A stretch of DNA of 64,000 nucleotides from Candidatus Portnoybacteria bacterium RBG_19FT_COMBO_36_7 (GCA_001819495.1 MHMW01000021.1:10706-74705), one strand, 5' to 3'; shown: positions 46,008 to 49,574, counted from the stretch's first letter. Notes: generated by a model from the sequence alone, not told the origin. Program-made: numbers and translations.

Positions 46008-46049
46008 GGGCGCGTAGCTCAGCGGTTAGAGCACCGCCCTTACCCGCCT
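46008..46049 (+). other. tRNA 5'-half-like fragment (acceptor plus D arm) directly upstream of tRNA-Ile. It cannot be folded into a complete cloverleaf
   Basis: GGGCGCGTAGCTCAGCGGTTAGAGCAC resembles the 5' half of the following tRNA (GCGCCCGTAGCTCAGTGGTAGAGCAC). Confidence 0.4.
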
Positions 46050-46059
46050 GCCAAAGCCT

Positions 46060-46131
46060 GCGCCCGTAGCTCAGTGGTAGAGCACGACTCTTATAAAGTC
46101 GGGGTCCTTGGTCCGATCCCAAGCGGGCGCA
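46060..46131 (+). tRNA. tRNA-Ile (anticodon TAT as encoded). An unusual UAU isoacceptor if unmodified
   Basis: GCGCCCG-TA-GCTC-AGTGGTA-GAGC-A-CGACT-CTTATAA-AGTCG-GGGTC-CTTGG-TCCGATC-CCAAG-CGGGCGC-A; 72 nt. Confidence 0.55.
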
Positions 46132-46201
46132 CTAAAATAGCCTAAAGCATATGGCTTATAGCACATAATCCGCTAAAAGCTATCTGCCAAAAGCTATTAT
46201 C

Positions 46202-46278
46202 GGGCGGTTAGCTCAGCTGGCTAGAGCGTCACATTGACATTGTGAAGGTCAGTGGTTCAAGTCCACTACCGCCCACCA
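46202..46278 (+). tRNA. tRNA-Val (anticodon GAC), CCA encoded
   Basis: GGGCGGT...TCACA-TTGACAT-TGTGA...ACCGCCC-A-CCA. Confidence 0.8.
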
Positions 46279-46279
46279 A

Positions 46280-47068
46280 ATGAAGTCAAAAAAATCGGCC
46301 ATTTTTATTTTATTGCTTTTTACCGCCCTCGTTTTGGCGGGTGTTTTTTATTGGTCCTTCATAAAGACTCAGGACAAGCTAAATAATCTGCCGAATGAAT
46401 CAGCCCAAAATTATTCCAATCTGCCAAATACAGAGAAAGAGATTTCAACCTCCACTCCCCCGTTTGTAATCAAAGACGAAATTTCGCGCGGCAATCCCGC
46501 TAAAAAACAGATTATTTTTACTTTTGACGCCGGCGCCGGATCAAATTCTTTGCAAAAAATTCTTGAAGTGACCAAAGCACATAATTTAAAATTAACTTTT
46601 TTTAGTACCGGGAAATTTGCCCAGAAGTATCCAGATTTAATAAAACAAATTGCCGCGGAAGATCACGAAATTTTCAATCACACGTATTCTCATCCGCATT
46701 TGACCCAAATAACGGACGAACAAATAAAAGAAGAACTTGATAAAACGGAACAAATTATCATCGGCCTGACCGGCCAAACCACCAAACCATATTTCCGTCC
46801 TCCATATGGCGACCGCAATTCTTATGTGCTTGAATTAGCCAAAGAGGAAGGCTACCAATCTGTCTATTGGACCATCGATGCATGGGATTGGATGACCGAT
46901 AAAACCGAAGAACAAGTCAAAAACAGAATTTACTCAAATTTAAAAAATGGCTCAATAATCCTGATGCATATTGGTGATAATATCACGGGGAATATCCTAG
47001 AAGAAGTTTTTACAAAAATAAAAAATGACGGATACAAAATAGTCAGCTTAACCGAAGGATTAAAATGA
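46280..47068 (+). CDS. Polysaccharide deacetylase (NodB-homology, CE4) family protein, secreted
   Basis: FTFDAG, HTYSHPHL, RPPYGDRN motifs; N-terminal signal/anchor. Confidence 0.8.
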   Translation: MKSKKSAIFILLLFTALVLAGVFYWSFIKTQDKLNNLPNESAQNYSNLPNTEKEISTSTPPFVIKDEISRGNPAKKQIIFTFDAGAGSNSLQKILEVTKAHNLKLTFFSTGKFAQKYPDLIKQIAAEDHEIFNHTYSHPHLTQITDEQIKEELDKTEQIIIGLTGQTTKPYFRPPYGDRNSYVLELAKEEGYQSVYWTIDAWDWMTDKTEEQVKNRIYSNLKNGSIILMHIGDNITGNILEEVFTKIKNDGYKIVSLTEGLK

Positions 47069-47976
47069 AATTCATAGCCAAAAAAGAAAACGTTGGCCGG
47101 CGGCTCGATAAACTTATTGCCGGGTATTGGCCGCAATATTCGCGCGCCTATATTCAAAAACAGGTCAAAGGCGGCGCGGTTCTGGTCAACGGCCAGATAA
47201 AAAAATCTAGTTATTTATTGAAAGAAAACGACGAAATTGAGGCAAATATTTTACCACTTCCTGAAATTTCTCTTGAGCCTGACCAAACAATTGAACTAAA
47301 AATTATTTATGAGGACGATGACGTGATAGTGATTGATAAGCCTGCCGGTTTAATTGTTCATCCAAGCGCCACCCAGAAAAGCGGCACGCTTGTGAACGGC
47401 TTGCTCGCCCACTATCCCCTGCTCAAAGGCGTCGGAGAGGACCCAGTCAGACCAGGCATTGTCCATCGCCTTGATAAAGACACTTCTGGCCTGATGATTG
47501 TCTCTAAAAACAACGAATCGTTTGGATTCTTAAAAGACCAGTTCAAGAACAAAAAGGTTGAAAAAAAATATCTGGTTTTGGTGGCTGGCCGGCCGAAAGA
47601 ATCATCCGGCAAAATTAAAACTTTCATCAGCCGCAGCAAATCAGATCCGACCAGACAAAAAATTTCACAGCACGGAGCAAAAGAAGCAATCACTTTTTAC
47701 AAAACCATACGCGAATTTCGTAATTTTACTTTAATTGAGGCCGTTCCAAAAACCGGGCGCATGCATCAGATAAGAGTGCAGCTAGCTTGGCTGGGCAATC
47801 CAGTGACCTGCGACAATAAATACGGGCTAAAAAAGCGCGCCTGCCCCGAAGGCCTGACCAGGCAATTTCTGCACGCGGCAAAGCTGACAGTAGTCTTGCC
47901 CGACGGTCAAAAGAAATCTTTCATCAGCCATCTGCCGCCTGATCTCGATATAATATTAGCTAGCCTTGCCAGGTAG
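47065..47976 (+). CDS. RluA-family 23S rRNA pseudouridine synthase (RluD/RluC-like) with an S4 domain
   Basis: RLDKLIAG (S4), VIVIDKPAGLIVHP, HRLDKDTSGLMIV (catalytic Asp). Confidence 0.85.
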   Translation: MKFIAKKENVGRRLDKLIAGYWPQYSRAYIQKQVKGGAVLVNGQIKKSSYLLKENDEIEANILPLPEISLEPDQTIELKIIYEDDDVIVIDKPAGLIVHPSATQKSGTLVNGLLAHYPLLKGVGEDPVRPGIVHRLDKDTSGLMIVSKNNESFGFLKDQFKNKKVEKKYLVLVAGRPKESSGKIKTFISRSKSDPTRQKISQHGAKEAITFYKTIREFRNFTLIEAVPKTGRMHQIRVQLAWLGNPVTCDNKYGLKKRACPEGLTRQFLHAAKLTVVLPDGQKKSFISHLPPDLDIILASLAR

Positions 47977-48045
47977 TGAAAATTCGACATTTTTTTTGAT
48001 TTTTGATCGCCTTCGGCGATCAGTCGAATTTCTACTACCTGGCTT
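47968..48045. repeat. Family-B inverted-repeat element, copy 3 (core palindrome gatcgccttcggcgatc)
   Basis: gccaggtagtgaaaattcgac ... gtcgaatttctactacctggc. Confidence 0.55.
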
Positions 48046-48127
48046 GAAATAAAATGATATTTGTGCTAAAATTTCAAAGTTAATATAATTAAGACAGTAT
48101 TTCACCGAAAGACTGTTTTTATATACT

Positions 48128-48192
48128 TTGCCAGGTAGTGAAATTCGACTGCTGCCTGGCAACCATTTAATTTTAAATTGTCGAATTTCTAT
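48128..48192. repeat. Family-B inverted-repeat element, copy 4 (short core)
   Basis: gccaggtagtgaaattcgac tgctgcctggcaaccatttaattttaaattg tcgaatttctattacctagc. Confidence 0.5.
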
Positions 48193-48200
48193 TACCTAGC

Positions 48201-48587
48201 ATGAAAATGACAGAAGAACAACTGAAAAAAGATCTGCCGGAAATTAAGCCCGGCTATACCGTTATTGTCCACCAAAAAATTAAGGAAGGCGACAAAGAAA
48301 GAATCCAGCATTTTCAGGGACTGGTTATTGCTCAAAAACATGGCTCTGGAATAAACGCTACTTTTACCGTGCGCAAAATTTCCGCCGGCGTGGCGGTTGA
48401 ACGAATTTTCCCGCTTCATTCTCCAAACATCCAAAAAATTGAAGTAGTCAAAAAATCAAAAGTGCGGCGGGCCAAACTCTATTATCTTCGCGGCCGTTTT
48501 GGCAAACAGGCAAAGATGAAAAAGACAGAGGCGGTGGTGCCCGAAACCGTTTTGCCGGAGCAAACGCCTGACCAAACTGCTGAATAA
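48201..48587 (+). CDS. rplS: 50S ribosomal protein L19
   Basis: [34 protein letters not shown]...[21 protein letters not shown]. Confidence 0.9.
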
Positions 48588-48591
48588 AAAC

Positions 48592-48673
48592 GCGCGGGTG
48601 GCGGAATTGGTATACGCGTATGCTTGAGGTGCATATGCCGCAAGGCTTGGAGGTTCGAGTCCTCTCCCGCGCA
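48592..48673 (+). tRNA. tRNA-Leu (anticodon GAG)
   Basis: GCGCGGG...TATGC-TTGAGGT-GCATA, long variable arm, GGAGG-TTCGAGT-CCTCT, CCCGCGC-A. Confidence 0.75.
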
Positions 48674-48718
48674 CAATAGTGAGCTTGCGGCGACTCGTTT
48701 ATTCACCCCGTTAGATTA

Positions 48719-48790
48719 GGGCAATTAGCTCAATGGCAGAGCGTCTGCTTTACACGCAGAAGGCTGTAGGTTCAATCCCTACATTGCCCA
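48719..48790 (+). tRNA. tRNA-Val (anticodon TAC)
   Basis: GGGCAAT-TA-GCTC-AATGGCA-GAGC-G-TCTGC-TTTACAC-GCAGA-AGGCT-GTAGG-TTCAATC-CCTAC-ATTGCCC-A. Confidence 0.75.
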
Positions 48791-48850
48791 CGAGGTACCC
48801 TTATCTAACGGGGTAGGCCGCAGGCGCGCCCCGTACCGAGCTTTGCTTTG

Positions 48851-48880
48851 GTACTGGGGTTCAATCCTTACATCGCCCAC
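48851..48880 (+). other. Partial duplicate of the tRNA-Val(TAC) 3' end, ~65 bp downstream of the intact gene
   Basis: ggggttcaatccttacatcgcccac versus the tRNA 3' end ggttcaatccctacattgcccac. The 65-bp spacer contains the palindrome cggggtaggccgcaggcgcgccccg. Confidence 0.45.
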
Positions 48881-48958
48881 AATTCTGGCTTATAGCATAT
48901 AGCTTATGGCAAATAGCAATTTACTATTGGCTATAAGCGATTAGTGATAAGCCAAATC

Positions 48959-49034
48959 GCCGGGGTAGCCAAGGTGGTTACGGCGCGGCTCTGAAAAAGC
49001 TGAGATGTCGGTTCAACTCCGACCCCCGGCACCA
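48959..49034 (+). tRNA. tRNA-Phe (anticodon GAA), CCA encoded
   Basis: GCCGGGG-TA-GCCA...CGGCT-CTGAAAA-AGCTG...GTCGG-TTCAACT-CCGAC-CCCCGGC-A-CCA. Confidence 0.8.
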
Positions 49035-49155
49035 AACTAAGTTAAAAGTTTAAAATTAAAAATGAAAAATTTAGGTATCGCTTCGCGATAAAATATAAAT
49101 TACACACGGAGCACATACCTTTATTTTTAACTTTTCACTTTTAATTTTTAACTAT
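49035..49155. repeat. AT-rich repeat element with inverted arms (ttaaaattaaaaatgaaaaatt / aacttttcacttttaattttt) around the palindrome tatcgcttcgcgata, between tRNA-Phe and tRNA-Gly
   Basis: Same arm motifs as the 16S V3 insertion and the 59150-59300 element. Confidence 0.5.
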
Positions 49156-49159
49156 TTCT

Positions 49160-49231
49160 GCGGGCGTAGTTCAGCAGTAGAACGTCTCCTTGCCAAGGAG
49201 AAGGTCGTGGGTGCGAAACCCATCGCCCGCT
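49160..49231 (+). tRNA. tRNA-Gly (anticodon GCC)
   Basis: GCGGGCG-TA-GTTC-AGCAGTA-GAAC-G-TCTCC-TTGCCAA-GGAGA-AGGTC-GTGGG-TGCGAAA-CCCAT-CGCCCGC-T. Confidence 0.8.
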
Positions 49232-49574
49232 CCCATCCTCCGCCGAGGCTACGGAATGGTACGCTTTGACGGAAAACAATAAATGCGGATGTATGGTATT
49301 CCGTATCCGTCAGCCGACGGAGAAGGATACCATCGCCCGCTCTTTATTTTATTTTTTATGTTTTACATTTATGTTTTAAAAGGTCTCAAAGATAAACGGA
49401 CATATTTAATAGCAAACTGAAAAAACATTGTATTGGACAGGTTAAATCAACAAAACATAGACTTCCTGTTCAATTATTATTTACTGAAATGTATTTAACA
49501 TCAAAAGAAGCAAAAAGACACGGATTGTGGTGGAAAAGTGGAGCGGGCAGAAGGAAATTAAAAGAAATATACAG

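What the first reader, a model, noticed from the sequence alone, without database searches (positions are those of the whole stretch)
46008..49330. Short duplications of tRNA ends next to four tRNA genes (Ile, Val-TAC, Gly-GCC, Ala-CGC)
Four partial tRNA copies sit beside intact genes:
1. Upstream of tRNA-Ile (46060-46131) there is a 5'-half tRNA-like piece, GGGCGCGTAGCTCAGCGGTTAGAGCAC, at 46008-46049.
2. Downstream of tRNA-Val(TAC), ~65 bp away, its last 23 nt are repeated with 2 mismatches (48851-48880). The spacer contains a palindrome.
3. The 13-nt 3' end of tRNA-Gly, ccatcgcccgctc, recurs 95 bp downstream (49318-49330).
4. On the minus strand, tRNA-Ala (62923-62994) is followed by a T-arm/acceptor look-alike at 62869-62896.

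Together with the gap duplications, this suggests repeated integration and excision of att-carrying elements at gene 3' ends, leaving attL/attR-like scars. No mobile element or recombinase is left in the window. The scar-delimited inserts are only 27-95 bp.
Basis: seen in the sequence. Interest (0 to 1): 0.6.

Follow-up and report, generated by a model that had tools for sequence, protein, structure and literature searches.

The report
Old tRNA genes broken by new copies
The partial tRNA copies are real: they are decaying leftovers of older tRNA genes that were split or displaced when DNA carrying a fresh working copy of the same tRNA was inserted, a turnover that recurs in this group of tiny-genome bacteria.

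Summary
The window comes from a Candidatus Portnoybacteria (Patescibacteria/CPR) genome. All four partial tRNA copies are real and non-random. One coordinate is off: the tRNA-Gly 13-mer lies at 49330-49342. They are more than end duplications.

- **Val(UAC) and Ala(CGC):** a complete tRNA bracketed by 11-12-bp inverted repeats sits inside an older gene of the same anticodon. Pieces of the older gene survive on both sides.
- **Ile(UAU):** a 35-nt 5' relic ends inside the anticodon.
- **Gly(GCC):** a degenerate tandem pseudo-tRNA lies between the intact gene and a broken GIY-YIG nuclease gene.

Close relatives have unoccupied sites. Their intact Val and Ala genes match the window's relics, not its working genes.

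The repeats around the Val insert are the terminal repeats of a small insertion element. In relatives this element occurs as 95-129-nt cargo-less copies with a 4-bp TTCA target duplication.

Related loci show the same turnover:
- three more nested tRNAs;
- LAGLIDADG-plus-tRNA cassettes with 5' relics;
- serine recombinase genes abutting tRNAs;
- group I introns.

The window has no recombinase. "Scars of mobile DNA at tRNA genes" holds. "Integrase att duplications at 3' ends" explains only part. The inserting enzyme is unknown.

The parts
45940..45968 (+). Promoter-like site (TTGAAA-17-TATACT) upstream of the Ile relic and the intact tRNA-Ile.
   Evidence: 10/12 match. The 29-nt block is 100% conserved in L086, where the tRNA-Ile gene starts 12 nt after the conserved block.
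46008..46042 (+). 5' relic of a second tRNA-Ile(UAU) gene. It covers positions 1-35 and breaks after CTTA, between anticodon positions 35 and 36.
   Evidence: 0/500 shuffles; 86-91% identity to tRNA-Ile of related loci.. Absent in L086 and L082.
46060..46132 (+). Intact tRNA-Ile(UAU). Its body is identical to the L086 orthologue, but its acceptor stem differs.
48690..48707 (+). 5' relic of the ancestral tRNA-Val(UAC): D-stem 3' strand, anticodon stem and loop (GCGACTCGTTTA, then an extra TT, then CACC). The acceptor strand and most of the D arm are lost.
   Evidence: 1/500 shuffles; 16/16 to L084, L087 and L082 tRNA-Val.
48706..48716 (+). Left terminal inverted repeat CCCCGTTAGAT, preceded by TTCA.
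   Evidence: (I12). The same terminal repeat occurs in L158, L083, L085, L121 and L146.
48719..48791 (+). Intact inner tRNA-Val(UAC), a replacement gene. It is only 85-89% identical to any relative's tRNA-Val(UAC).
   Evidence: (75 bits).
48803..48813 (+). Right terminal inverted repeat ATCTAACGGGG.
   Evidence: (I12); the inner cloverleaf folds on a long flanking helix, z = -6.2.
48813..48824 (+). Ancestral tRNA-Val relic: variable loop plus 5' strand of the T stem (GTAGGCCGCAGG).
   Evidence: The same piece occurs in L083 and inside the intact L084 gene.
48825..48859 (+). 35-nt hairpin inserted between the T stem and T loop of the ancestral tRNA-Val (CGCGCCCCGTACCGAGC...GGTACTGGGG).
   Evidence: A homologous hairpin sits at the same position in the L083 relic. 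It is absent from the intact L084 gene.
48858..48880 (+). Ancestral tRNA-Val relic: T loop, T stem 3' strand and acceptor 3' strand.
   Evidence: D4; 0/500 shuffles; 22/23 to L084.
49160..49233 (+). Intact tRNA-Gly(GCC), 100% identical to the gene in L081, L082, L084 and L087.
49234..49284 (+). Spacer between the intact tRNA-Gly and the pseudo-tRNA. Together with the pseudo-tRNA it folds as a structured region and is homologous to L082 8597-8695.
   Evidence: (z = -2.9 and -3.5).
49285..49342 (+). Degenerate pseudo-tRNA-Gly. It has GCGGATG, a weakly matching truncated D region and a recognisable anticodon arm, lacks the T arm, and ends in the exact 13-mer CCATCGCCCGCTC (49330-49342).
   Evidence: 13/13, 0/500 shuffles; colinear gapped alignment, 2/1000 shuffles. 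Absent in L084 and L087.
49358..49578 (+). GIY-YIG nuclease pseudogene, disrupted by a frameshift and an internal stop.
   Evidence: 53% identity to the intact L081 gene; PF01541 in the L081 and L112 homologues.
63055..63079 (-). Outer (ancestral) tRNA-Ala(CGC): acceptor 5' strand and D arm.
   Evidence: 19/21 to the L164 tRNA-Ala; the upstream flank plus the gene start align with L164.
63023..63054 (-). Hairpin insertion (TTGCCCA...TGGGCAA) between the D arm and the anticodon arm of the outer tRNA-Ala.
   Evidence: read from the sequence. Absent from the L164 gene.
63010..63022 (-). Outer tRNA-Ala anticodon arm (GCATTCGCACTGC, anticodon CGC).
   Evidence: D3; 2/500 shuffles.
62995..63009 (-). 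Left inverted-repeat arm flanking the inner tRNA-Ala (contains CGCCGTAGCCG).
   Evidence: I1, 20 nt at 85%; z = -6.2.
62922..62994 (-). Intact inner tRNA-Ala(CGC). It carries the G3:U70 pair and is 78% identical to the tRNA-Ala(CGC) of related loci.
   Evidence: (70 bits).
62911..62921 (-). Right inverted-repeat arm (GATTACGGCGG).
   Evidence: I1; the arm plus the following relic are 22/22 identical in L166 and L167.
62868..62911 (-). Outer tRNA-Ala 3' part: variable loop and T-stem start (GAGGCGGG), a 12-nt insertion (62892-62903), then the T arm and acceptor 3' strand (62869-62891).
   Evidence: D1; 0/500 shuffles; 9/10 and 20/24 to the L164 tRNA-Ala.

Best explanation
The partial copies are decaying remnants of older copies of the same tRNA genes. 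At each site a DNA segment carrying a complete, working tRNA of the same anticodon entered the resident gene or landed beside it. Because the insert supplies the function it destroys, the event is tolerated, and the old gene then erodes.

**Val(UAC).** The insert is a minigene bracketed by the terminal inverted repeats of a small insertion-element family (TTCA|CCCCGTTAGA ... TCTAACGGGG|TTCA). It sits in the anticodon arm of the lineage's original gene. That gene has also lost its 5' end and picked up a hairpin insertion in its T arm.

**Ala(CGC).** A minigene with different 11-12-bp flanking repeats sits after the anticodon arm of the original gene. That gene carries two further small insertions.

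**Ile(UAU).** Only a 5' stump remains, broken at anticodon position 35/36. This is the same place as the Val break.

**Gly(GCC).** A tandem older copy has lost its T arm. It lies next to a dead GIY-YIG nuclease gene.

**Shown:**
- the relics, their colinearity with the orthologous genes, and the unoccupied sites in relatives;
- the replacement status of the Val gene;
- the identity of the Val repeats with a real insertion-element family;
- recurrence of the nested architecture in other genomes.

**Inferred:**
- that the repeat-bracketed minigenes move as units through an unidentified transposase or recombinase acting on the repeats;
- that homing-endonuclease cassettes and recombinase elements seen in relatives contribute to the non-nested cases (Ile, Gly).
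For: 1. **The relics match orthologues.**
   - Val pieces are colinear with the intact L084 tRNA-Val (12/12, 4/4, 7/7, 22/23), with 0/500 shuffles reaching the score.
   - Ala pieces are colinear with the intact L164 tRNA-Ala (19/21, 8/8, 9/10, 20/24), also 0/500.
2. **The Val gene is a replacement.** Window Leu, Phe and Gly genes are 96-100% identical to those of the closest relatives. The intact Val is only 85-89% identical, while the relic is 96-100% identical.
3. **Unoccupied sites exist:** L084 and L087 (Val, Gly), L164 (Ala), L086 and L082 (Ile).
4. **The Val flanking repeats belong to a real insertion-element family.**
   - Copies of 95-129 nt with the same ends and a 4-bp TTCA duplication occur in L085, L121 and L146.
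   - Removing each copy plus one TTCA restores clean N-termini of a serine recombinase, a prepilin and ribosomal protein L19.
   - The same repeats bracket the inner tRNA-Val in L158. The junction TTTA|TTCACCCCGTTA is identical there, and one G-C to A-T change is mirrored in both arms.
5. **The nested architecture recurs.**
   - It is seen in L158 (Val), L133 (Val, 17-bp repeats) and L107 (Cys, 18-bp repeats).
   - Of the five nested tRNAs, three have the strongest flank complementarity among 316 tRNAs (scores 17, 14 and 12). The window's tRNA-Ala and L158's tRNA-Val score 8, which is within the null range. In a null of 1000 mismatched flank pairs, a score of 12 or more occurred once.
   - All five fold as a cloverleaf on a long helix. 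Four have z = -6 to -7; L158 has z = -2.6, and its minimum-energy fold lacks the D and anticodon arms.
6. **Outer copies range from nearly intact to heavily deleted.** L158 shows 1 mismatch to its inner copy; the window Val and L133 are heavily deleted. This is what inactivation followed by decay predicts.
7. **Related turnover occurs in the same clade.**
   - LAGLIDADG ORFs lie 11-33 nt upstream of a complete tRNA in 13 loci (12 tRNA-Leu, 1 tRNA-Phe). In L085/L086, L149 and L135 they are preceded by a 5' relic of an older tRNA.
   - GIY-YIG genes lie within 55-118 nt of tRNAs.
   - Large serine recombinase genes abut tRNA 3' ends.
   - True group I introns interrupt tRNA-Phe.
Against: - No transposase or recombinase was found among the window's scanned ORFs, so the enzyme is unknown.
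- The tRNA-carrying copies lack the TTCA duplication on their right side. Their junctions show a TT insertion and loss of 2-6 nt of the old gene. That is not a clean cut-and-paste signature.
- The inner tRNA-Val genes of the window and L158 are not especially similar, although their flanks are. A single mobile cassette therefore needs later gene conversion or cargo exchange.
- The Ala, L107 and L133 repeat arms are unique in the data, with no cargo-less copies.
- For Ile, the intact gene's body is the one that matches the orthologue, so the stump may be the remnant of an invader rather than of the original gene.
- The Gly relic is identical to the resident gene where preserved, which fits a simple tandem duplication equally well.
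- Why inserts land in the cognate gene is not explained by transposition alone. Survivorship or homology must be invoked.
Confidence: 0.6

Rival explanations
1. Integrase model. Integrative elements using tyrosine or large serine recombinases inserted into the anticodon-loop or T-loop region of the tRNA genes. They brought a replacement tRNA or 3' part. Almost all of each element was later deleted. The inverted repeats flanking the inner genes would then be the two arms of the element's attP.
For: - Large serine recombinase genes (Resolvase + Recombinase + Zn_ribbon_recom) lie convergent to, and within 0-100 nt of, tRNA-Leu, Val, Ser and Gly in L085/86, L149, L099, L095 and L100.
- L085 and L149 show old tRNA-Leu 5' relic, then LAGLIDADG, then new tRNA-Leu, then recombinase.
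- Break points lie in the anticodon and T loops, the classical sublocations of tRNA att sites (established knowledge).
- Exact 17-21-nt 3'-end repeats starting in the T loop occur in L084, L107, L112, L127, L135 and L156.
- The gap gene in this window also has two displaced copies of its 3' end.
Against: - No recombinase was found in the window.
- The junctions are imprecise (TT gain, 2-6 nt lost). Site-specific recombination does not produce that.
- The Val flanking repeats behave as ends of a transposon-like element with a 4-bp target duplication. One copy even interrupts a serine recombinase gene.
- 5' relics and whole-gene replacement do not fit 3'-end att duplication.
- No complete element bounded by matching relics was seen.
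Confidence: 0.2
2. Homing-endonuclease replacement. Free-standing LAGLIDADG or GIY-YIG nuclease genes are linked to a cleavage-resistant tRNA copy. They cut the resident tRNA gene and are copied in during repair. The nuclease gene is later lost, leaving the new tRNA and fragments of the old one.
For: - LAGLIDADG ORFs (PF14528) lie immediately upstream of a complete tRNA, sometimes overlapping it, in 13 loci. 5' relics of the older tRNA lie upstream in L085/86, L149, L135 and L082.
- A GIY-YIG gene sits directly after a tRNA-Gly 3' relic in L081, L112 and the window.
- The LAGLIDADG-linked tRNA-Leu is a distinct sequence type shared by L082 and L085/86.
Against: - No nuclease gene or remnant lies within the Val, Ala or Ile inserts. 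Only 2-26 nt separate each inner gene from its flanking repeat or relic.
- This model does not explain the flanking inverted repeats.
- The nuclease targets are unknown.
- The GIY-YIG proteins are about 79-aa catalytic domains with no recognisable DNA-binding domain.
Confidence: 0.12
3. Functional nested genes. The inner tRNA with its flanking helix acts as an intron-like module. The inner tRNA is cut out by processing enzymes and the outer halves are joined, so one transcript yields two tRNAs.
For: - All five nested cases fold as an inner cloverleaf on an 11-19-bp helix that continues the outer anticodon arm. Four have z = -6 to -7 and L158 has z = -2.6.
- One mirrored base change keeps the arms complementary between the window and L158.
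- L133 retains a perfect 7-bp outer acceptor pairing.
Against: - Outer copies are visibly decayed. The window Val lacks its 5' acceptor strand and D arm and has a broken T stem. The window Ala has three insertions. L133 lacks its D and T arms.
- No tRNA-splicing endonuclease is known in these bacteria (own knowledge, not tested).
- Close relatives manage with a single plain gene.
Confidence: 0.04
4. Chance similarity or assembly artefact from mixing strain variants in a metagenome bin.
For: The genome is a metagenome-assembled bin, and tRNA genes are short conserved repeats.
Against: - No more than 2 of 500 shuffles reach the observed score for any piece.
- Homologous relics and arms occur in independent assemblies from other samples (L083, L082, L166/167, L158).
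- The decay pattern is colinear with real orthologues.
Confidence: 0.02

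Closest known systems
Genomic islands and prophages integrated in tRNA genes, which leave attL/attR repeats of the tRNA 3' part (tyrosine integrases; anticodon-loop and T-loop sublocations)
   Same: Insertions target tRNA genes at the anticodon and T loops. 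The insert restores the function it interrupts by carrying tRNA sequence. Displaced fragments of the original gene remain beside the working one.
   Different: Here the insert can be a complete tRNA nested inside the old gene. 5' relics occur. Junctions are imprecise. No integrase was found in the window's scanned ORFs or by the whole-window tblastn searches. What remains is 100-200 nt rather than a multi-gene island.
Miniature inverted-repeat elements (MITE-like non-autonomous insertion elements)
   Same: Short terminal inverted repeats. A 4-bp target duplication in the cargo-less copies. Sizes of 95-129 nt. Several copies occur across related genomes, including insertions at gene starts.
   Different: Two copies carry a working tRNA gene as their only cargo and sit inside the cognate tRNA gene. 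Those copies lack a clean target duplication. No partner transposase is known.
Free-standing homing endonucleases that drive inheritance of neighbouring genes, for example phage T4 SegB in the tRNA gene cluster (intronless homing; own knowledge)
   Same: Small nuclease genes (LAGLIDADG, GIY-YIG) are tightly linked to tRNA genes. tRNA sequence types travel with the nuclease gene.
   Different: These are bacterial chromosomes, not phage genomes. Relics of the replaced gene remain. In the window only one dead GIY-YIG gene is left. No cleavage data exist.
[quoted passage not shown]
   Same: Same phylum and same kind of target (the anticodon loop, including position 35/36). True examples occur in related loci (L154, L112).
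   Different: The window's inserts have no group I core. They contain a tRNA rather than a ribozyme. They inactivate the outer gene instead of being spliced out. Relics and nesting are not mentioned in that paper.
Archaeal tRNA introns that host another functional RNA or sit at non-canonical positions; split and permuted tRNAs (own knowledge)
   Same: A structured RNA gene sits inside a tRNA gene on a helix that extends the anticodon arm. Small hairpin inserts occur in T and D regions.
   Different: This is a bacterium with no known splicing endonuclease. The outer genes are decayed. There is no bulge-helix-bulge evidence.

Membership tests
tRNA-gene att scars of integrase-type integrative elements | The direct repeat equals the 3' part of the tRNA, from the anticodon or T loop to the 3' end, downstream of an intact gene. 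| tested here: inconclusive
   Met in part for Gly (13-mer) and for the 3' pieces of Val and Ala. Ile is a 5' piece, and Val and Ala also have 5' pieces upstream.
tRNA-gene att scars of integrase-type integrative elements | An integrase or recombinase gene lies next to the repeat, or at least within the element. | tested here: not met
   No recombinase domain in the 50 of 63 window ORFs of at least 90 aa that were scanned. The 13 unscanned ORFs lie within 42762-63907; syntenic homologues of nine of them carry housekeeping domains in relatives. No tblastn hit with serine or tyrosine recombinase queries. Met in related loci L085, L099, L149, L095 and L100.
tRNA-gene att scars of integrase-type integrative elements | The intact gene is a chimera of host 5' part and element-borne 3' part. 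| tested here: not met
   The intact Val differs from the orthologue over its whole length, while the relic matches it. The inner Val and Ala are complete genes flanked on both sides by relic pieces.
MITE-like insertion element (family with ends CCCCGTTAGA / TCTAACGGGG) | Terminal inverted repeats. | tested here: met
   Window 48706-48716 and 48803-48813. The same arms occur in L158, L083, L085, L121 and L146.
MITE-like insertion element (family with ends CCCCGTTAGA / TCTAACGGGG) | Target-site duplication, and an intact target once the element is removed. | tested here: inconclusive
   Met for the cargo-less copies: TTCA on both sides, and healed sites give clean ORFs in L085, L121 and L146. 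Not met for the tRNA-carrying copies in the window and L158, where TTCA is on the left only and 2-6 nt of the old gene are missing.
MITE-like insertion element (family with ends CCCCGTTAGA / TCTAACGGGG) | A partner autonomous element encoding a transposase with the same ends. | not tested
   None seen in the loci held.
Group I intron in a tRNA gene | Catalytic core recognised by the Rfam Intron_gpI model, lying between two tRNA exons. | tested here: not met
   No match in window 45900-49450 or 62600-63300 at E up to 10. ARAGORN with introns finds none. Met in relatives L154 4609-4843 and L112 4888-5120.
Homing-endonuclease gene cassette | A nuclease ORF of a homing-endonuclease family adjacent to the insertion. 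| tested here: inconclusive
   A GIY-YIG pseudogene at 49358-49578 lies next to the Gly relic. None lies at the Val, Ala or Ile sites. LAGLIDADG-plus-tRNA cassettes occur only in relatives.
Homing-endonuclease gene cassette | The nuclease cleaves the nuclease-free allele of the target. | not testable with these tools
   Needs biochemistry.
Spliced (intron-containing, split or permuted) tRNA | Both exons are intact and can form a standard cloverleaf once the insert is removed. | tested here: not met
   The outer Val lacks its acceptor 5' strand and D arm and has two T-stem mismatches. The outer Ala has three insertions and a weakened anticodon stem.

The most novel reading that the evidence does not exclude
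Repeat-bracketed tRNA minigenes form a distinct class of self-compensating mobile element. Each is a tRNA gene flanked by 11-18-bp inverted repeats. It inserts into the anticodon arm of the cognate chromosomal tRNA gene (tRNA-in-tRNA) and replaces the gene it destroys. It spreads between Patescibacteria genomes. It may use loop-exposed single-stranded DNA of tRNA genes as its target, or act as an RNA-level processing module.
Probability: 0.3. Interest if true: 0.75.

Novelty: new variant of a known kind. Interest (0 to 1): 0.6.

Why it matters
- **tRNA genes in reduced genomes are not static.** Even in bacteria with very small genomes and mostly single-copy tRNAs, these genes are repeatedly overwritten by incoming copies. 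Mobile DNA can break an essential gene if it carries a spare.
- **Annotation.** Relics and nested genes can be miscalled, and true orthologues can be confused with replacements.
- **Horizontal transfer.** The relics provide dated markers of transfer between uncultured lineages.
- **A possible new element type.** If the repeat-bracketed minigenes prove to be mobile units, they would be a new and very small kind of site-preferring element. The group I introns recently described in the same phylum would be only one part of a wider set of elements targeting tRNA genes.

Tried and rejected
- **Unusual but complete tRNAs (intron-containing or permuted).** ARAGORN with introns up to 300 nt and lowered thresholds, plus Rfam at E up to 10, found nothing. 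Rejected.
- **Chance.** Rejected by shuffles and by the absence of similar matches around the four other tRNAs.
- **Phage origin of the inner tRNA-Val.** No exact 25-mer match in IMG/VR.
- **A 15-mer of the Val terminal repeat in IMG/VR.** It gave 55 hits, about the chance expectation. Only one phage (L182, L186, L199) has the full hairpin with both arms and TTCA on both sides. It lies between genes with no tRNA nearby. Noted, not interpreted.
- **Is the hairpin a common repeat in the window?** Only the two arms plus one 1-mismatch hit were found.
- **The two hairpins upstream of rplS as mobile elements.** Rejected, because single copies sit at the same place in L081, L085 and L086.
- **The structured spacer after the gap gene as a member of the T-loop element family.** A profile built from the four clear members finds a fifth copy in L158 but nothing significant in the window. 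Not supported.
- **Consensus fold of the T-loop element.** My coordinates were out of register, so the result is uninformative.
- **An Ile 3' relic downstream of the intact gene.** Only weak scattered matches. Not claimed.
- **Integron attC or lox-like readings of the CCCCGTTAGAT hairpin.** Considered from memory only and dropped for lack of a test.

Full report
**Origin and context**

The RluD-like protein at 47065-47976 is identical to a protein of Candidatus Portnoybacteria bacterium RBG_19FT_COMBO_36_7, a metagenome-assembled Patescibacteria (CPR) genome. ARAGORN and Rfam agree on eight tRNA genes:
- Ile(UAU) and Val(GAC) at 46060-46278;
- Leu(GAG), Val(UAC), Phe and Gly(GCC) at 48592-49233;
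- Ala(CGC) on the minus strand at 62922-62994;
- Leu(UAG) on the minus strand at 6740-6823.

The gene order S1, FtsH, [Ile, Val], deacetylase, RluD, L19, [Leu, Val, Phe, Gly], HU, YmdB, RNase Y, ClpP is conserved in relatives. A scan of JGI metagenomes with L19 gave 80 related loci, most with the same tRNA arrays.

**Checking the observation**

All four partial copies are present.

| Piece | Shuffles reaching the observed score |
|---|---|
| Ile 5' piece | 0/500 |
| Val 3' piece | 0/500 |
| Gly 13-mer | 0/500 |
| Ala 3' piece | 0/500 |

The flanks of Leu-GAG, Phe, Val-GAC and Leu-UAG show nothing comparable. The Gly 13-mer is at 49330-49342, not 49318-49330. No intron-containing or permuted tRNA and no group I intron is detectable at these sites.

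**The Val(UAC) site**

L084 is the closest relative (L19 89% identical). It has one plain tRNA-Val(UAC). Pieces of exactly that gene lie on both sides of the window's intact Val gene, in colinear order (0/500 shuffles):
- GCGACTCGTTTA, an extra TT, then CACC at 48690-48707;
- GTAGGCCGCAGG at 48813-48824;
- GGTTCAATCCTTACATCGCCCAC at 48858-48880.

The old gene has lost its 5' acceptor strand and most of its D arm. It carries a 35-nt hairpin between its T stem and T loop. A homologous hairpin sits at the same place in the L083 relic.

The intact gene (48719-48791) lies inside the old anticodon arm. It is bracketed by CCCCGTTAGAT and ATCTAACGGGG. It is only 85-89% identical to any relative's tRNA-Val(UAC). 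The neighbouring Leu, Phe and Gly genes are 96-100% identical to those of the same relatives. The working Val gene is therefore a replacement, and the fragments are the original.

**The Ala(CGC) site**

L164 (neighbouring hydrolase 88% identical) has a plain tRNA-Ala(CGC) after the same upstream gene. The window has that gene's parts in colinear order (0/500 shuffles):
- acceptor and D arm (63079-63055, 19/21);
- anticodon arm (63022-63010);
- variable loop and T-stem start (GAGGCGGG);
- T arm and acceptor 3' strand (62891-62869, 20/24).

These parts are interrupted three times: by a hairpin, by the intact tRNA-Ala with its 20-nt, 85% complementary flanks, and by a 12-nt insertion.

Other relatives show further states of the same locus:
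- L166 and L167 keep the right arm and the relic (22/22 identical), but ARAGORN finds no tRNA-Ala there.
- L168 has a new tRNA-Ala followed by a 3' half of the old one, with a palindrome in its T loop.

**The Ile(UAU) site**

The 35-nt piece at 46008-46042 corresponds to positions 1-35 of a tRNA-Ile(UAU). It is 86-91% identical to related genes. It breaks after CTTA, between anticodon positions 35 and 36, which is where the Val gene is broken (TTTA|).

It lies 40 nt downstream of a promoter-like site that is 29/29 conserved in L086. In L086 the tRNA gene starts 12 nt after that conserved block. L086 and L082 have no such piece.

The intact gene's body matches L086, but its acceptor stem differs. 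I therefore cannot say which copy is the older one.

**The Gly(GCC) site**

The tRNA-Gly is 100% identical in the window, L081, L082, L084 and L087.
- In L084 and L087 it is followed directly by the HU terminator.
- In the window it is followed by a 51-nt spacer and then a 58-nt degenerate pseudo-tRNA-Gly (49285-49342). The pseudo-tRNA has a recognisable acceptor start and anticodon arm, and no T arm. It ends in the exact 13-mer. Only 2 of 1000 shuffles reached its alignment score.
- Next comes a GIY-YIG gene disrupted by a frameshift and a stop.
- L082 has a homologous, more decayed version without the nuclease gene.
- L081 and L112 have an intact GIY-YIG gene (PF01541) preceded by a short tRNA-Gly-3'-like relic.

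**What the Val flanking repeats are**

The 16-nt left junction TATTCACCCCGTTAGA recurs in L085, L121 (15 of the 16 nt) and L146. There, TTCA|CCCCGTTAGA...TCTAACGGGG|TTCA bounds AT-rich segments of 95-129 nt. Deleting the segment plus one TTCA restores clean N-termini:
- a serine recombinase (MNTPPQ...);
- a prepilin (MGLNFKKTKAFTIIELL...);
- ribosomal protein L19.

This is a small insertion element with terminal inverted repeats and a 4-bp target duplication.

The same ends occur in three other settings:
- They bracket the inner tRNA-Val of L158, a distant relative. The junction TTTA|TTCACCCCGTTA is identical there, and a G-C to A-T change is mirrored in both arms.
- They form a cargo-less 30-nt hairpin in the T loop of a tRNA-Gly relic in L083.
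- They form a 29-nt hairpin flanked by TTCA in one phage contig family.

The tRNA-carrying copies lack the right-hand TTCA and have small losses at the junctions. Their mode of insertion is therefore not settled.

**How general the pattern is**

I ran BLAST of all ARAGORN tRNAs against the tRNA-masked loci, and also scored flank complementarity. This found:
- Three further nested tRNAs: L158 Val, L133 Val (17-bp arms) and L107 Cys (18-bp arms).
- Three of the five nested tRNAs (L133, L107 and the window's Val) have the highest flank complementarity of 316 tRNAs; the window's Ala and L158's Val fall within the null range.
- All five fold as a cloverleaf on a long helix. Four have z = -6 to -7 and L158 has z = -2.6.
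- Outer copies range from almost intact (L158) to heavily deleted (L133, window Val), as expected for inactivated genes.

Other kinds of turnover occur in the same arrays:
- LAGLIDADG ORFs lie 11-33 nt upstream of a complete tRNA, or overlap it, in 13 loci. 5' relics of the older tRNA lie upstream in L085/86, L149 and L135.
- Large serine recombinase genes abut tRNA 3' ends in five distinct arrangements.
- True group I introns sit in tRNA-Phe.
- Exact 17-21-nt repeats of tRNA 3' ends start in the T loop, separated from the gene by conserved structured elements.

**Mechanism**

The shown steps are:
1. an older gene existed;
2. a segment with a complete same-anticodon tRNA entered it or landed beside it;
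3. the older copy is decaying.

I infer that the repeat-bracketed minigenes are inserted as units by an enzyme acting on their terminal repeats. For Val this rests on the link to a real insertion-element family.

Such insertions persist only because they carry a spare copy of the essential gene they break. The shared break point after YTTA in the Val and Ile anticodon loops, and the many insertions in T loops, suggest that loop regions of tRNA genes are preferred targets.

The rivals remain open:
- **Recombinase-mediated integration followed by deletion.** This would make the flanking repeats the two arms of an attP. Imprecise junctions and the transposon-like behaviour of the Val repeats weaken it.
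- **Homing-endonuclease-driven replacement.** It fits the Leu, Phe and Gly cassettes in relatives. It does not explain the inverted repeats or the absence of any nuclease remnant at Val, Ala and Ile.
- **A functional, spliced arrangement.** The decay of the outer genes argues against it.

**Comparison with what is known**

tRNA genes as integration sites, and displaced tRNA fragments next to islands, are textbook. Group I introns in Patescibacteria tRNA genes were described recently (PMC13011429). That paper does not mention relics, nesting or free-standing nuclease-plus-tRNA cassettes. My literature searches found no description of a bacterial tRNA nested in a cognate tRNA. Absence from the searched library is not proof of novelty.

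I file this as a new variant of a known kind: mobile DNA that targets tRNA genes and compensates for the damage.

**Verdict**

It is wrong in the particulars (3'-end att duplications, integration and excision cycles).
- The enzyme responsible is unknown, and no candidate was found in the window: 50 of its 63 ORFs of at least 90 aa were scanned against Pfam, and the whole window was searched by tblastn with four mobile-element queries, a serine recombinase, a partial tyrosine recombinase, and GIY-YIG and LAGLIDADG proteins.

Noticed in passing
L112 4695-4846, L135 5747-5919, L156 753-891, L107 4742-4517 (minus), L158 1917-1758 (minus): A conserved 120-190-nt structured element sits between an intact tRNA (Val-UAC, Gly, Leu-UAA) and an exact 17-20-nt copy of that tRNA's 3' end starting in the T loop. 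Each copy begins with a stretch antisense to its own host's T arm, arranged like a group I internal guide. The core is GGGGTCGGGAGGAAA..TTTCCTCCCG..GGAAATTATTCAAAACCGAGGG. There is no Rfam match. A profile finds five copies in the loci held and none in the window. A second family (L127 3039-3181, L148 4057-4201) has the same layout.
   Followed up: partly
L082 7513-8142; L085 2412-3080; L149 1030-1635; L135 4794-5420; nine more loci listed: Free-standing LAGLIDADG ORFs end 11-33 nt before a complete tRNA, or inside it (12 times tRNA-Leu-GAG, once tRNA-Phe). Several are preceded by a 5' fragment of an older copy of that tRNA. The linked tRNA-Leu is a distinct sequence type.
   Followed up: partly
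L085 3653-5338 (minus) and 5524-5733; L099 874-2430; L149 1820-3196; L095 5745-7244; L100 4968-5720: Large serine recombinase genes are convergent with tRNA genes and lie within 0-100 nt of them. In L085 and L099, an inverted copy of the recombinase's own C-terminal coding region lies beyond its 5' end. This suggests a compact element with long terminal inverted repeats.
   Followed up: partly
window 11952-12031, 12310-12389, 12534-12613 (gap gene on the minus strand): The GAPDH gene's last ~26 codons are present three times. Downstream of the intact end lie a 145-nt GC-rich structured spacer, a degenerate copy (60% identity), an 85-aa ORF of unknown function, and a well-preserved in-frame copy (81% identity). 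The spacer contains CCCCATTCAT, which is antisense to ATGAATGGGG in the duplicated segment. This is the same kind of displaced gene end as at the tRNAs, but at a protein-coding gene.
   Followed up: partly
window 49358-49578: GIY-YIG nuclease pseudogene, disrupted by a frameshift and an internal stop. Intact 79-aa homologues lie directly after tRNA-Gly relics in L081 and L112, and next to other tRNAs in L106 and L128.
   Followed up: yes
window 47964-48050 and 48126-48206: Two tandem copies of a hairpin with 21-bp arms (GCCAGGTAGTGAAA..GTCGAATTTCTA) lie between RluD and rplS. The second overlaps the L19 start codon. Single copies sit at the same place in L081, L085 and L086, so this is probably a conserved rplS leader or RluD terminator that has been duplicated here, not a mobile element.
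   Followed up: partly
window 9388-11144 (minus): The 16S rRNA gene spans 1757 nt against a 1533-position model. It therefore carries about 220 nt of extra sequence, as often reported for this phylum.
   Followed up: no
window 46060-46132 and about 35 related loci: A tRNA-Ile with anticodon UAU is conserved at the head of this tRNA array across the whole clade. This implies that AUA is read by a UAU tRNA rather than by a lysidine-modified CAU tRNA.
   Followed up: no
L182 2670-2715 (also L186, L199; IMG/VR phage contigs): A high-GC phage carries TTCA-CCCCGTTAGAT-GTTTACT-ATCTAACGGGG-TTCA between two genes. These are the same arms and flanking TTCA as the CPR insertion element, with only a 7-nt interior.
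   Followed up: partly
window 48886-48954 and 49040-49153; also L081 2398-2490 and L082 8213-8306: Spacers between the tRNA genes are long imperfect palindromes. They are built either from TAGC/ATAGC-like motifs or from AT-rich arms (34-39 nt arms, 76-86% complementary). Similar spacers occur in relatives.
   Followed up: no
window 55253-55630 (minus): A 125-aa DUF559 / REase_MTES_1575 endonuclease-like ORF. It is the only other nuclease-like small gene found in the window.
   Followed up: no
window 35111-36768 (minus): Four tandem small genes each match the type IV secretion pilin family (T4SS_pilin, TrbC/VirB2).
   Followed up: no
L135 5516-5586: A pseudo-tRNA scored by Rfam (53.5 bits) but not by ARAGORN. 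It is a Gly-like gene with a mutated anticodon region (GAC) and the 3' end of tRNA-Phe. It lies upstream of a newer tRNA-Gly.
   Followed up: no
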